The notes under the pieces are model-generated. The model ran no database searches. It saw only the letters and a program-made list of their open reading frames with translations, and was not told the DNA's origin. From positions 22,305 through 86,304 of IMG/VR virus record IMGVR_UViG_3300023184_000072: 64,000 bases of DNA; one strand, written 5' to 3'. Source of the DNA: a virus. Below are positions 60,539 through 61,804 of the stretch, one piece after another; positions within the stretch are counted from its first letter, which is position 1; the number at the start of each line of letters is the position of its first letter. A program made the position numbers and the translations under genes.

Positions 60539-60570
60539 TTTGTTTTATTTATCCCTGTAGATTATATTTG
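60539..60570 (+). promoter_or_regulatory. Bacteroidota-type promoter TTTG-N20-TATATTTG for tmRNA
   Basis: Exact consensus ending 17 nt before the tmRNA 5' G; embedded in the hairpin ATCCCTG..CAGGGAT. Confidence 0.75.
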
Positions 60571-60890
60571 CAGGGATATTTATTTATGGGGGTGACTGGT
60601 TTTGACAGGTTACCAATAATTAATACAATCAGCCAGAGAGATAACTGTAAACTAAGGTGAATTTAATTAAATGGCAAAAACAATTCTCGTGTTGTGTCTC
60701 TAGGAGATTACGCACAAATCGAAGCTAACATGAATACAGTATTCTCTTTATTAGGAGAAGAAGTCCTTGTAGCAGCCTAAATTGAATAAGATTTCTCTAT
60801 TAGATTAAATAGAGTGGTGGAAACGTTGAGCTGAGCTTGACCCTATAAGCTGTATAAATTGTATTAACGAAAGTAGTTTGGACGTGGGTT

Positions 60891-61586
60891 TGGAAATTGG
60901 ACCCATTACATAGGAATATGTAATTAAAAATTGCTTGAATTGCTGGAACGCTAAGTCAGAAATGATATGCCAATCAGCAGCCAAGCTCACTAGAAGAAGT
61001 GAGAAGGTTCAGAGACTAGGGACACTAAGGTGAGCCCACAGTAAGCAACATCTAGAACAGATGATGATATAGTCCGATCCCTACAGAAATGTAGGAAGAA
61101 AGAATAGTCTTTCATAGGCTAACTTTCTTATAGCTTGTTTATTTGTGTATTTACCATTTCTAACGGTAACTACATCATGGTACTTCAAGACTGTGTTTAT
61201 ACGATGTAACTTTTTAGGATGGTGAGAATCTATAAGTCTACAAAATTTTAAACACTCTTGATTGCTATTACATGTTAAAGAATAACCTGTAGCATGGTTT
61301 TCTTTTCTAGAAGCTTTTGTTGATAGATGTAATTTTATATTATGTTCTTCTAACATATATTTTTGAATCTCTTCAAGGATATTAATGTATGTGTTAGTAA
61401 AATCTAATCTAATTGTTTTATACAATTCGTTTTTAGATTTCTTACATAGTGTAATTGAACCATCAGCATCAAAGAAGCCTGAAATGTATTGTAGTGTCAT
61501 GATAAATATGTTTTTAGATATGGTGTAAATCTACAACATGTCCTAGACATATGCAAGTAAAGTGACAACAAGTTATTAACAAAATG
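60891..61586 (+). mobile_element. Group I self-splicing intron in the tmRNA T-loop (696 nt)
   Basis: P1 GGGTT/GACCC with U:G at the splice site; P AATTGCTGGAA, Q AATCAGCAG, R GTTCAGAGACTA, S GATATAGTCC; P3 TTGCTT/AAGCAA; terminal G at 61586. Confidence 0.93.
61081..61500 (-). CDS. Single-motif LAGLIDADG homing endonuclease, antisense inside the intron (139 aa)
   Basis: LQYISGFFDADGSI motif helix followed by a beta-saddle (IRLDFTNT). Confidence 0.88.
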   Translation of the reverse strand: MTLQYISGFFDADGSITLCKKSKNELYKTIRLDFTNTYINILEEIQKYMLEEHNIKLHLSTKASRKENHATGYSLTCNSNQECLKFCRLIDSHHPKKLHRINTVLKYHDVVTVRNGKYTNKQAIRKLAYERLFFLPTFL

Positions 61587-61773
61587 CGACTCCCACCACC
61601 TCCACTCATAATGCTGATTATCAATCAGTTAAAGAAAGCAGTTGCTTGATGTCAAATATGTACAGCAACAGACATTAGAGAAATTTGGCTTCTCATGAAT
61701 GTTAAGTCCTTTCCACACAGAGAAGGAGTTGAGTACTTTATGGTTTGGGTTTTACTAGTGCCAATCTCAACAT

Positions 61774-61804
61774 AAAGGCTATCAGAAATGGTAGCCTTTT
61801 TTAT
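61774..61804 (+). terminator. Intrinsic terminator
   Basis: AAAGGCTATC-AGAAAT-GGTAGCCTTTTTT. Confidence 0.8.

What the first reader, a model, noticed from the sequence alone, without database searches (positions are those of the whole stretch)
61081..61557. Antisense LAGLIDADG endonuclease in the intron with its own promoter; its target may be the pseudo-palindromic T-arm shared with host ssrA
Seen: the 139-aa LAGLIDADG ORF is on the strand opposite the intron and tmRNA, inserted in the P9 region, and its last codons double as the P9 hairpin. A near-consensus host promoter (CTTG-N20-TAGATTTA, 61526-61557, minus strand) lies just upstream, inside the intron. Known: intron endonuclease genes are usually sense-oriented, phage ones are mostly GIY-YIG or HNH, and single-motif LAGLIDADGs are homodimers that cut pseudo-palindromes. 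Inference: the intronless site GTGGG-TTCGACT-CCCAC is such an inverted repeat. The enzyme could home into rival phages' tmRNA genes, or cut the conserved host ssrA/tRNA T-arm DNA while the phage copy is immune. Its antisense transcript could also regulate splicing.
Basis: partly seen in the sequence, partly recalled or inferred. Interest (0 to 1): 0.85.

Follow-up and report, generated by a model that had tools for sequence, protein, structure and literature searches.

The report
Backwards homing nuclease in phage tmRNA intron
A lake phage's ribosome-rescue RNA (tmRNA) gene is split by a self-splicing-type intron that carries an intact DNA-cutting "homing" gene on the opposite strand with its own promoter, a real variant of a mobile element already catalogued in bacteria.

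Summary
Window 61081-61500 (minus strand) encodes an intact 139-aa single-motif LAGLIDADG protein with an I-CreI-like predicted fold. It lies after P9 of a 696-nt group I intron (60891-61586, plus strand) that splits a phage tmRNA gene at T-loop position 3. It recurs in 8 of 13 lineages, against 0.11 expected by chance.

Of 26 related loci, 18 share the antisense in-intron layout, including the only ssrA genes of two Flavobacteriaceae genome bins. Two loci are sense. Six hold the nuclease gene free-standing and convergent at the tmRNA 3' end.

The intron and nuclease gene are more conserved than the tmRNA exons (83-97% against 62-86%), and dN/dS is 0.12-0.44. This points to an active, mobile element.

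New here: the antisense of codons 121-124 pairs with a strand about 10 nt before the 3' splice site. The pairing covaries across lineages (0 of 20000 permutations did as well).

Not shown: cleavage, the target site, a minus-strand transcript, splicing. Attack on host ssrA or tRNA genes and antisense regulation remain speculation.

T-loop introns with LAGLIDADG genes after P9 are in print (PMC11915505). The scan has reported this design in at least 10 other genomes. I rate it a new variant of a known kind.

The parts
60540..60570 (+). Putative promoter of the tmRNA gene, TTG-N20-TATATTTG. It ends 17 nt before tmRNA G1 and faces the nuclease gene's promoter.
   Evidence: Motif scan of the whole window, 11 hits on both strands. 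The -7 consensus TAnnTTTG of Flavobacterium sigma-A is from PMC9723704. No transcription start data.
60588..60890 (+). tmRNA exon 1: acceptor 5' strand GGGGGTG, tag reading frame, pseudoknot region, and the T-stem 5' strand GTGGG plus TT.
   Evidence: RF00023 match 60588-60895, 31.8 bits, E 2.4e-11, cut off at its 3' end. 75.6% identical over 194 nt to the intron-less tmRNA of Flavobacterium phage FpV4.
60891..61586 (+). Group I intron, 696 nt, at T-loop position 3 (between TT and CGACT). It ends with omega G at 61586.
   Evidence: RF00028 match 60881-61096, 94.1 bits. Splice sites read and found by the split-T-arm search.
61080..61095 (+). P9 hairpin CCUACA-GAAA-UGUAGG. Its reverse complement encodes the last codons (PTFL) and the stop codon of the nuclease gene.
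   Evidence: Last helix of the RF00028 alignment; ORF coordinates.
61081..61500 (-). Homing endonuclease gene, 139 aa, with one LAGLIDADG motif (YISGFFDADGSI).
   Evidence: Pfam. Model pLDDT 92.8. Foldseek top hits are I-CreI chains. 167 homologues found. ORF intact in 26 of 26 loci. dN/dS 0.12-0.44.
61130..61138 (+). 5' strand (AUAGCUUGU) of a long-range RNA helix that closes the insert. It is the antisense of codons K121-I124.
   Evidence: Minimum-free-energy fold. Cognate pairs beat non-cognate pairs in all 20000 permutations. Block controls.
61568..61576 (+). 3' strand (ACAAGUUAU) of the closing helix, 10 nt before omega G.
   Evidence: The segment 61501-61586 is 92-97% identical among five relatives, more than the ORF.
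61526..61557 (-). Promoter of the nuclease gene inside the intron: -33 TTG (within CTTG), 20-nt spacer, -7 box TAGATTTA. The box ends 25 nt before the ATG.
   Evidence: The motif is found in 8 of 13 lineages against 0.11 expected. Sequence level only.
61587..61604 (+). tmRNA exon 2: CGACT (rest of the T-loop), CCCAC (T stem), CACCTCC (acceptor strand) and the discriminator A. CTC follows in place of CCA.
   Evidence: Read; split-T-arm search.

Best explanation
The ORF is a working I-CreI-type LAGLIDADG homing endonuclease gene. I infer that it acts as a homodimer. It rides, in reverse orientation, inside a mobile group I intron of a phage tmRNA gene.

Shown: the anatomy, the fold, purifying selection, and a layout conserved across many loci. 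The intron plus nuclease gene is also better conserved than the tmRNA gene around it.

Inferred mechanism:
1. The host sigma-A RNA polymerase starts at the TTG-N20-TAGATTTA promoter inside the intron's 3' segment and transcribes the minus strand. This makes nuclease expression independent of the untranslated tmRNA precursor.
2. The enzyme cuts intron-less tmRNA genes of co-infecting phages, and now and then the host ssrA gene, in or next to the T-loop DNA.
3. Repair from the intron-bearing copy moves intron and nuclease gene together. The donor copy is immune because the intron splits the site.
4. On the plus strand the 490-nt insert after P9 is looped out of the ribozyme. A helix between the antisense of codons 121-124 and a strand 10 nt before the 3' splice site closes it, so splicing and tmRNA function can continue.
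For: Identity and fold:
- Pfam LAGLIDADG_1 and LAGLIDADG_3 above their cut-offs.
- S7 G8 F9 F10 D11 A12 D13 G14 are invariant in 49 aligned homologues.
- AlphaFold pLDDT 92.8 with helix-strand-strand-helix-strand-strand-helix order.
- Foldseek top hits are I-CreI chains (probability 1.00, TM 0.57-0.66), followed by I-OnuI, I-Vdi141I, I-TnaI and I-MsoI.

Selection:
- The ORF is intact in 26 of 26 loci.
- dN/dS is 0.12-0.44 in all 36 pairs among 9 sequences.

Layout:
- 18 of 26 loci have the gene inside the intron and antisense.
- 2 have it inside and sense.
- 3 have it free-standing and convergent beside a tmRNA with an ORF-less intron.
- 3 have it free-standing beside an intron-less tmRNA.

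Mobility (window against L002, L003, L004 and L012):
- Upstream flank 23-33% identical, exon 1 62-86%, intron core 88-92%.
- Nuclease gene 83-85%, intron 3' segment 92-97%, exon 2 71-81%, downstream flank 33-61%.
- Related elements sit at T-loop positions 2, 3, 7 and 8.
- They also sit in the only above-cut-off tmRNA gene of two Flavobacteriaceae bins, flanked by housekeeping genes.

Promoter: the motif is in 8 of 13 lineages against 0.11 expected. The -7 consensus TAnnTTTG is reported for Flavobacterium psychrophilum (PMC9723704, passages).

Closing helix:
- Minimum-free-energy pair 61130-61138 with 61568-61576.
- Mean cognate duplex energy -8.68 kcal/mol against -4.49 for non-cognate pairs; 0 of 20000 permutations did as well.
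- Five of seven control block pairs show no cognate advantage.
Against:
- ARAGORN finds no tmRNA even in the script-joined exons. The RF00023 hit is below its gathering score.
- The exact promoter motif is absent in 5 of 13 lineages: L013 (one mismatch), L006, L007, L027 and L029.
- The helix is weak in L013 and absent at that register in L029.
- A second block, the antisense of codons 92-100, also shows cognate-specific pairing with the same 3' strand (1 of 5000 permutations). The exact partner is therefore uncertain.
- Near-identical nucleases sit in genes with different T stems, so the recognised bases are unknown.
- No terminator-like site on the minus strand follows the ORF, so the 3' end of the mRNA is undefined.
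- The nuclease gene is rare in bacteria: found in 1 of 401 Flavobacteriaceae genomes searched, and that one is the centre genome itself.
Confidence: 0.7

Rival explanations
1. Host-attack weapon. The main role of the enzyme is to cut the host's ssrA gene, and perhaps tRNA genes, during infection. This would shut down host trans-translation while the intron-protected phage tmRNA takes over. Homing would be secondary.
For: The exon junction resembles bacterial ssrA T arms and acceptor ends: compare GGACGTGGGTTCGACTCCCACCACCTCCA here with the L006 junction. Related intron and nuclease elements sit in two Flavobacteriaceae ssrA genes, so this family has reached host genes at least once. The promoter is of the host sigma-A type, so early expression is possible.
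Against: No result shows cleavage of host DNA. The conservation pattern (element better conserved than its host gene, many phage tmRNA alleles, four insertion subsites) is the classic signature of homing between homologous genes. The nuclease gene was found in only 1 of 401 Flavobacteriaceae genomes searched. Free-standing forms beside intron-less tmRNA genes (L022, L028, L030) fit selfish spread as well.
Confidence: 0.12
2. Relic or maturase. The protein no longer cuts DNA and is kept, if at all, as a splicing helper for the intron.
For: Some LAGLIDADG proteins are maturases: I-AniI and an mRNA maturase appear among the weak PDB profile hits. No activity data exist.
Against: The acidic motif residues are invariant in 49 sequences. 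The six free-standing copies, three of them beside intron-less tmRNA genes, are equally intact, and a maturase would have no substrate there. The element looks recently mobile. From recall, known maturases are double-motif monomers.
Confidence: 0.05
3. Regulatory antisense RNA. The minus-strand transcript matters mainly as an antisense RNA, or through convergent transcription, and controls splicing or tmRNA output.
For: The tmRNA promoter motif (60540-60570, plus strand) and the nuclease promoter motif (61526-61557, minus strand) face each other about 990 bp apart, with no minus-strand terminator-like site between them.
Against: Purifying selection acts on the protein (dN/dS 0.12-0.44). Free-standing copies lie beyond a shared terminator hairpin and would not cover the tmRNA. 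Two lineages have the gene in sense orientation. No strand-specific RNA data exist, since the runs laid were contigs.
Confidence: 0.06
4. On the origin of the orientation: the antisense layout is inherited from a free-standing nuclease gene that lay convergent at the tmRNA 3' end and was later captured by the intron (collaborative homing followed by invasion).
For: All intermediate states exist in relatives. A free-standing nuclease gene lies beside an ORF-less intron in L021, L023 and L025, and beside an intron-less tmRNA in L022, L028 and L030. It is always convergent and within about 15-60 nt of the tmRNA end. The pathway is proposed in print for other phage systems (PMC3984707, section 12).
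Against: The protein tree nests L022 inside the in-intron clade (99/96 with L017). The five other free forms make one clade (99/98) among in-intron forms (midpoint root only). L022, L025 and L028 keep a second, partial copy of the tmRNA 3' end beyond the nuclease promoter, as expected if they derive from intron-borne forms.
Confidence: 0.3

Closest known systems
Intron-form tmRNA genes with LAGLIDADG homing endonuclease genes (tmRNA database paper, PMC11915505; passages read)
   Same: [quoted passage not shown] Position 3 is reported only from class Bacteroidia. 23 of 844 introns carry a LAGLIDADG gene, and 4 of those lie after P9. The element here is at position 3 with the gene after P9.
   Different: Here the host gene is a phage tmRNA, from an IMG/VR virus record of 86 kb. 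The words orientation, strand, antisense and reverse do not occur in the paper's main text, so the reverse orientation, the internal promoter and the closing helix are not described there. In my sample one nuclease family spans positions 3, 7 and 8, and a free-standing member lies beside an ORF-less intron at position 2.
I-CreI, I-MsoI, I-CvuI and I-TnaI: single-motif homodimeric LAGLIDADG homing endonucleases of rRNA-gene introns
   Same: One LAGLIDADG motif, a comparable size (139 aa against about 150-170) and the same fold (Foldseek probability 1.00, TM 0.57-0.66). [quoted passage not shown]
   Different: Sequence identity is only 13-16%. From recall, those genes are sense-oriented. Dimerisation, target and cleavage pattern are untested here.
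I-DirII of the Didymium iridis rDNA group I intron, and antisense nuclease genes in nuclear L2066 rDNA introns
   Same: The nuclease gene lies on the strand opposite the intron and host RNA gene and is expressed from its own promoter (PMC3073962, passage; PMC9548176, title and abstract start in the listing only).
   Different: Those are eukaryotic nuclear His-Cys-box genes with Pol II promoters, spliceosomal introns and poly(A) tails. Here it is a phage or bacterial LAGLIDADG gene with a sigma-A-type promoter. My two searches for antisense nuclease genes in bacterial or phage group I introns brought up none in the titles, abstract starts and the passages of PMC3073962 that I read. A review of bacterial group I introns does not use the words antisense, opposite or orientation (PMC3984707).
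Collaborative homing and endonuclease-gene invasion (free-standing nucleases that target intron insertion sites in phages; review PMC3984707, section 12)
   Same: Relatives L021, L023 and L025 have a free-standing nuclease gene next to a gene that carries an ORF-less intron. That is the configuration the model requires.
   Different: The window itself holds the composite form. The tree and the exon-2 remnants suggest that in this family some free-standing forms derive from intron-borne ones rather than the reverse.

Membership tests
LAGLIDADG homing endonuclease (single-motif, I-CreI type) | LAGLIDADG motif with conserved acidic residue | tested here: met
   Pfam PF00961 29.8 bits and PF14528 29.7 bits, both above their cut-offs. 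SGFFDADG is invariant in 49 sequences.
LAGLIDADG homing endonuclease (single-motif, I-CreI type) | alpha-beta-beta-alpha-beta-beta-alpha core fold | tested here: met
   Model pLDDT 92.8 with elements H3-13, E14-19, E29-36, H39-53, E58-62, E72-77, H80-89. I-CreI chains are the top Foldseek hits.
LAGLIDADG homing endonuclease (single-motif, I-CreI type) | Homodimer formed through the LAGLIDADG helices | not testable with these tools
Inferred only from the single motif and the size.
LAGLIDADG homing endonuclease (single-motif, I-CreI type) | Site-specific double-strand cleavage of an intron-less allele | not testable with these tools
   Needs an enzyme assay. The only indirect support is the mobility signature.
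Group I intron | Conserved catalytic core P3-P9 | tested here: met
   RF00028 94.1 bits against a gathering score of 50, with model positions 1-253 covered.
Group I intron | U at -1 paired with G in P1, and G at the 3' end (omega G) | tested here: met
   UGGGUU pairs with GGACCCA with a U.G wobble at the splice site. The intron ends ...AAAAUG at 61586 (same pattern in 15 relatives).
Group I intron | Self-splicing | not testable with these tools
   No RNA contig joined 60890 to 61587 (contigs only, of relatives). Indirect support: the same element interrupts the only tmRNA gene of two bacterial bins.
Intron-form tmRNA gene | Exons rebuild a tRNA-like domain: 7-bp acceptor with G3.U70, 5-bp T stem, 7-nt T-loop | tested here: met
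   GGGGGUG pairs with CACCUCC, GUGGG with CCCAC, and the loop is UUCGACU. The RF00023 match stops at the T-loop (E 2.4e-11, 31.8 bits, below the gathering score of 47).
Intron-form tmRNA gene | Recognised as tmRNA by a gene finder once the intron is removed | tested here: not met
   ARAGORN found nothing in the script-joined exons. It also misses the intron-less FpV4 tmRNA, which Rfam scores at 58.2 bits. The failure therefore reflects divergence of phage tmRNAs.
Intron-form tmRNA gene | Intron at one of the four catalogued T-loop subsites | tested here: met
   The intron lies between loop nucleotides 2 and 3, which is position 3 in the numbering of PMC11915505.
Bacteroidota sigma-A promoter | -7 box TAnnTTTG with an upstream TTG | tested here: met
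   TAGATTTA matches 7 of the 8 box positions (5 of 6 specified), with the last G replaced by A, and TTG lies 20 nt upstream. The motif is in 8 of 13 lineages against 0.11 expected. The consensus is from PMC9723704; the -33 TTG and its spacing are recalled.
Bacteroidota sigma-A promoter | Mapped transcription start | not testable with these tools
   The runs available were kept as contigs without strand or read ends.

The most novel reading that the evidence does not exclude
The phage uses the intron-protected arrangement as a weapon. The early, host-promoter-driven nuclease would cut the host ssrA T-arm DNA and rival phages' tmRNA genes. The phage's own split tmRNA gene would be immune and would supply a tmRNA with a different tag, so ribosome rescue in the infected cell is taken over. 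In the same reading, the nuclease coding sequence also serves, on its antisense strand, as a ribozyme helix needed for that immunity to be harmless.
Probability: 0.12. Interest if true: 0.85.

Novelty: new variant of a known kind. Interest (0 to 1): 0.55.

Why it matters
T-loop introns in tmRNA genes, some with LAGLIDADG genes after P9, are catalogued (PMC11915505). This finding adds four things.

1. In a large, mostly phage-borne family the nuclease gene is read backwards from its own host-type promoter inside the intron.
2. A stretch of the coding sequence co-varies, on its antisense strand, with the 3' splice-site region to close the insert. That is a dual constraint on one DNA stretch, and compensatory mutations can test it.
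3. One nuclease family shows intron-borne antisense, intron-borne sense and free-standing forms. It lies inside introns at three T-loop subsites (3, 7, 8), and a free-standing member lies beside an ORF-less intron at a fourth (2). This is a natural series for studying how nucleases and introns join and part.
4. Phage tmRNA genes and host ssrA genes exchange the element.

It also matters for annotation. ARAGORN found none of the tmRNA genes in the window or the seven loci it scanned. Rfam RF00023 gave no tmRNA hit in the 3-kb scan of the window or in seven of the 25 related loci, and stayed below its gathering score in the window and eight more. Rfam's filters also missed the intron in four loci.

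Tried and rejected
RNA evidence. I made one search for public sequencing runs and laid four of them, three RNA and one DNA, all kept as contigs. No contig joins 60890 to 61587. One RNA contig of a relative (X16, 516 nt, about 92% identical) runs from exon 1 through the intron into the ORF's 3' part, which is either unspliced RNA or DNA carry-over. One RNA contig (X15) ends in an uninterrupted T arm of a relative, which could be spliced RNA or an intron-less gene. Contigs give no strand and no read ends, so nothing can be said about a minus-strand transcript.

ARAGORN found no tmRNA or tRNA in the window, in the exons joined in a script, in the FpV4 locus, or in L002-L007.

Rfam missed the intron in L013, L014, L018 and L019 at E up to 1, although it is plain by eye. 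From that point I classified loci by reading and by regular expressions.

A MAFFT alignment from the ORF tail to exon 2 (A2) misaligned the variable 3' segment. I therefore did not run the count of structure pairs on the helix and used cognate against non-cognate duplex energies instead. Per-locus shuffles of the 3' strand were not significant on their own.

The sigma-70 scan is the wrong model for Bacteroidota promoters. I used it only for terminators.

I first favoured a free-standing ancestor as the reason for the antisense orientation. The tree and the exon-2 remnants weakened this, and I demoted it to a rival.

L031 and L032 (33% matches) were left unclassified and are not in any count. 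L008-L011 are the same places as L002-L005 and were dropped. L018 has a T arm and an acceptor strand around the intron, but I did not find the rest of its tmRNA.

The PHROGs best hit is labelled 'HNH endonuclease'. I treat that label as a misnomer, given Pfam and the fold.

I did not scan metagenome contigs or run the search of protein representatives. Supplements of PMC11915505 (the intron covariance model and the list of nuclease-bearing introns) were closed and may already record the orientation.
Full report
WHAT IS THERE

The window is the last 64 kb of an 86,304-base IMG/VR virus record. Public runs that hold the stretch are freshwater and lake metagenomes.

On the plus strand, 60588-60890 is the 5' part of a tmRNA gene. 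RF00023 matches 60588-60895 with E 2.4e-11 (31.8 bits, below the gathering score of 47), and the match is cut off at the T-loop. The first 194 nt are 75.6% identical to an unannotated stretch of Flavobacterium psychrophilum phages of the FpV4 group. In FpV4 that stretch is a complete, intron-less tmRNA gene (58.2 bits).

Rfam's group I intron model matches 60881-61096 at 94.1 bits against a gathering score of 50. It is the only family above its gathering score in the whole window.

Reading the sequence gives the splice sites. Exon 1 ends GTGGGTT at 60890. Its last U can pair with G in the internal guide GGACCCA. The intron ends with G at 61586, and exon 2 starts CGACTCCCACCACCTCCA. The joined exons give the T arm GTGGG-TTCGACT-CCCAC and a 7-bp acceptor stem with G3.U70.

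The intron is 696 nt long and lies between loop nucleotides 2 and 3. That is position 3 in the numbering of the tmRNA database paper, which reports position 3 only from class Bacteroidia (PMC11915505, passages).

THE ORF

The ORF at 61081-61500 on the minus strand encodes 139 aa. It matches both Pfam LAGLIDADG families above their cut-offs. A database search returned 167 homologues at E up to 1e-3 among 173 candidates, most of them 134-141 aa.

In an alignment of 49 of these, SGFFDADG is invariant, and so is a C-terminal A..ER.F pattern. The AlphaFold model built on that alignment has a mean pLDDT of 92.8 and the expected order of helices and strands. Foldseek against the PDB ranks I-CreI chains first (probability 1.00, TM 0.57-0.66). 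Halves of I-OnuI and the homodimeric I-Vdi141I, I-TnaI and I-MsoI follow. A profile search of PDB sequences gives only weak LAGLIDADG hits (best E 2.9e-5).

The stop codon and the last four codons are the reverse complement of the P9 hairpin at 61080-61095.

IS THE LAYOUT REAL AND CONSERVED?

I collected the window, 23 distinct viral loci and 2 bacterial loci that encode a relative at 39-81% identity. Two further weak matches, L031 and L032, were left out. I read each locus on the tmRNA strand. All 26 ORFs are intact at 133-154 aa. The loci fall into four layouts.

- In 18 of 26 the gene lies inside the intron, after P9, and antisense. These are the window, L002-L007, L012-L020, L027 and L029.
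- In 2 of 26 (L024, L026) it lies in the same place but in sense orientation.
- In 3 of 26 (L021, L023, L025) the intron is short (194-225 nt where measured) and has no ORF. The nuclease gene is free-standing just beyond the tmRNA 3' end and convergent, sharing a terminator hairpin.
- In 3 of 26 (L022, L028, L030) the tmRNA has no intron, and the gene again abuts its 3' end in convergent orientation.

So 24 of 26 copies are antisense or convergent, and all 26 lie beside the 3' part of a tmRNA gene. For L018 I found only the T arm and acceptor strand.

The introns sit at four subsites. Position 3 is used in the window and most phage loci. Position 7 is used in L006, L007 and L027. Position 8 is used in L016, L018 and L029. 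Position 2 is used in L021.

L006 and L007 are contigs of Flavobacteriaceae genome bins. There the interrupted gene is the only tmRNA hit above the cut-off in 2.5 and 2.0 Mb (109.7 and 119.8 bits). It is flanked by genes for malate dehydrogenase, FAA hydrolase, flavin reductase and an alpha/beta hydrolase. The same design therefore occurs in chromosomal ssrA genes.

The family is rare in bacteria. A profile search of 401 Flavobacteriaceae genomes found it only in the centre genome itself.

IS IT ACTIVE AND MOBILE?

dN/dS is 0.12-0.44 in all 36 pairs among nine gap-free sequences.

I compared the window with four close relatives (L002, L003, L004, L012). The identities by segment are:

- upstream flank: 23-33%
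- tmRNA exon 1: 62-86%
- intron core: 88-92%
- nuclease gene: 83-85%
- 86-nt intron 3' segment: 92-97%
- exon 2: 71-81%
- downstream flank: 33-61%

An element that is better conserved than the gene it interrupts, inside otherwise unrelated surroundings, is the expected trace of horizontal spread by homing.

THE PROMOTER

It reads TTG, 20 nt, TAGATTTA, and the box ends 25 nt before the ATG. TAnnTTTG is the -7 consensus of the main sigma factor in Flavobacterium psychrophilum (PMC9723704, passages). The upstream TTG and its spacing are from my recall.

The pattern TTG-N20-TAnnTTT[GA] occurs within 130 nt upstream of the ORF in 13 of 18 antisense in-intron loci and in the free-standing L022. Counting independent lineages, it occurs in 8 of 13, against 0.11 expected from shuffles. 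The sequence around the motif differs between lineages.

The motif is missing in L006, L007, L027 and L029, and L013 has one mismatch.

The same motif (TTG-N20-TATATTTG) lies at 60540-60570 on the plus strand, 17 nt before the tmRNA 5' end. The two promoters therefore face each other, and no minus-strand terminator-like site lies between them. Whether the antisense RNA has any effect is unknown.

A HELIX THAT CLOSES THE INSERT

This observation is new in this report.

Folding 60880-61610 gives a strongly structured RNA (z-score -7.67). The fold contains a 9-bp long-range helix between 61130-61138 (AUAGCUUGU, the antisense of codons K121-I124) and 61568-61576 (ACAAGUUAU, 10 nt before omega G).

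In relatives, the codon-anchored block and the last 26 nt of the intron pair in the same register with different sequences. Examples are AUAGUUUGUU with AACAAACUAU in L016, GUAAUUUGUUG with CAACAAAUUAU in L018, UUAAUUUCAU with AUGAAAUUAA in L014, GCAUGUUCU with AGAACAUGU in L007, and UCCUUUCUC with GAGAAAGGG in L017.

Across 12 lineages the mean duplex energy of cognate pairs is -8.68 kcal/mol, against -4.49 for non-cognate pairs. None of 20000 permutations of partners reached the cognate mean.

Of seven control block pairs, five show no cognate advantage. One is marginal (99 of 5000). One, the antisense of codons 92-100 against the same 3' strand, is also significant (1 of 5000). It uses the same 3' strand and is the only strong pairing in L029. 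Pairing of the 3' strand with the antisense ORF is therefore well supported, but the exact partner may differ or alternate. L013 is weak.

Codons 119-124 are the most variable part of the C-terminal half of the protein. This would let the RNA constraint be met.

The helix also explains why the 86-nt 3' segment is more conserved than the ORF. That segment holds the mRNA leader, the promoter, the helix strand and the 3' splice site.

THE TARGET

Nothing here shows what the enzyme cuts. Several points favour the T-loop region.

- The gene is tied to the tmRNA 3' end in every layout.
- The intron subsites span only 6 nt of the T-loop.
- In two of the three intron-less neighbours (L028, L030) the T-loop reads AGTCGGAG instead of the usual TTCGAnT. 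This could be an immunity variant.

The reconstituted site is an inverted repeat because it encodes a stem-loop. By my count it is symmetric at 6 of 11 positions per half-site (read).

One point argues against a need for that exact palindrome. Nucleases that are near-identical to each other and 78-81% identical to the window's protein sit in genes with T stems GTGGG, GAGGG and GGGAG and with loop 3' halves CGACT, CAATT, CAACT, CGAAA and CGAAT. The bases shared by those sites (GGAC, TT, C, CTCCA) are not symmetric.

ORIGIN OF THE ORIENTATION

The free-standing convergent forms suggested capture of a neighbouring nuclease gene by the intron. This is the pathway proposed for other phage systems (PMC3984707, section 12).

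The protein tree has two clades, each with 100/100 support. L022 is nested among in-intron forms (99/96 with L017). The five other free-standing forms make one clade (99/98) within in-intron forms (midpoint root only). L022, L025 and L028 keep a second partial copy of the tmRNA 3' end beyond the nuclease promoter. This fits derivation from intron-borne forms. The direction is therefore open, and I give capture from a free-standing ancestor 0.3.

A functional reason is also possible. A gene inside an untranslated, heavily processed RNA precursor gains independent expression by facing the other way. The known case I could cite is I-DirII in Didymium rDNA (PMC3073962, passage).

COMPARISON WITH WHAT IS KNOWN

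T-loop group I introns in tmRNA genes are well catalogued. PMC11915505 lists 883 unique sequences, finds LAGLIDADG genes in 23 of 844 introns, and places 4 of those after P9. Its main text does not mention strand or orientation. It searched RefSeq viruses, but the passages I read do not say whether any intron form came from a phage.

Antisense nuclease genes with their own promoters are known in eukaryotic nuclear rDNA introns. My searches brought up no bacterial or phage case, judged from titles, abstract starts and the passages of three of the listed papers that I read.

This scan has already reported the same design in at least 10 other genomes. It has also reported a free-standing member beside ssrA in a candidate-phyla-radiation bacterium (e1-1301462). 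Those notes agree with what I found independently. None of the notes returned by my word search mentions the closing helix.

VERDICT

This is a new variant of a known kind: a mostly phage-borne, antisense, self-promoted LAGLIDADG gene in the tmRNA T-loop intron, with coding and ribozyme constraints on one DNA stretch. I score interest at 0.55.

Noticed in passing
window 60540-60570 (+): TTG-N20-TATATTTG, the same promoter pattern as for the nuclease gene, lies 17 nt before the tmRNA 5' end. It overlaps a hairpin followed by a T run (60550-60578) that the terminator scan lists. The tmRNA and nuclease promoters are convergent.
   Followed up: partly
L028 805-1213 and L030 1351-1740 (minus strand): Intron-less phage tmRNA genes beside a free-standing nuclease gene have an abnormal 8-nt T-loop, AGTCGGAG, between GAGGG or GTGGG and its complement. 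This may be a cleavage-resistant variant.
   Followed up: partly
L022 about 88 nt, L025 about 40 nt and L028 about 39 nt beyond the nuclease gene's start (tmRNA strand): A second, partial copy of the tmRNA 3' end lies beyond the promoter of free-standing nuclease genes. In L022 it reads AGGGG, 21 nt, then CCCCT-ATGCTCCA. It looks like the left-over exon 2 of an earlier intron-borne state.
   Followed up: partly
L021, L023, L025, L030 (weaker in L028), 25-45 nt upstream of the nuclease ATG: A conserved element like CC(C)ATCTCC(A)CA on the nuclease strand resembles an inverted tmRNA 3' end. Its role is unknown.
   Followed up: no
L025 about 1933 (minus strand): The position aligned with omega G of the ORF-less intron reads A (TATTTA|CGAGT, against TATATG|CGAAA in L023). 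Splicing may be impaired or may use another G.
   Followed up: no
L025 300-714 (+): A GOLLD RNA (RF02032, 328 bits) lies about 1.2 kb from the nuclease gene and tmRNA gene of this viral contig.
   Followed up: no
L002 3515-3623 and L004 3655-3761 (minus strand): Rfam tRNA hits 107-109 nt long (44-46 bits) lie just upstream of the phage tmRNA. ARAGORN does not call them. They may be tRNA genes with an insert.
   Followed up: no
L013, L014, L018, L019: Rfam with E-value thresholds returned no group I intron hit, although the core motifs are plainly present and the loci parse like their relatives. Filter misses like this would hide such introns in routine annotation.
   Followed up: yes
L018 1388-2300: A T arm and an acceptor 3' strand flank the intron, but I found no tmRNA 5' part upstream. 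A tRNA-like 3' half lies nearby. This may be a permuted or degraded tmRNA gene.
   Followed up: no
L024 and L026: Two viral loci carry the nuclease gene in sense orientation after P9. A TTG-N20/21-TAnnTTT[GA] motif ends only 3-4 nt before the ATG.
   Followed up: no
window 61728-61804 (+): A hairpin region after the tmRNA ends in a terminator-like site at 61774-61799. It gives a weak, sub-threshold match to the Phe leader model (26.4 bits, gathering score 55). This is probably just the terminator.
   Followed up: no
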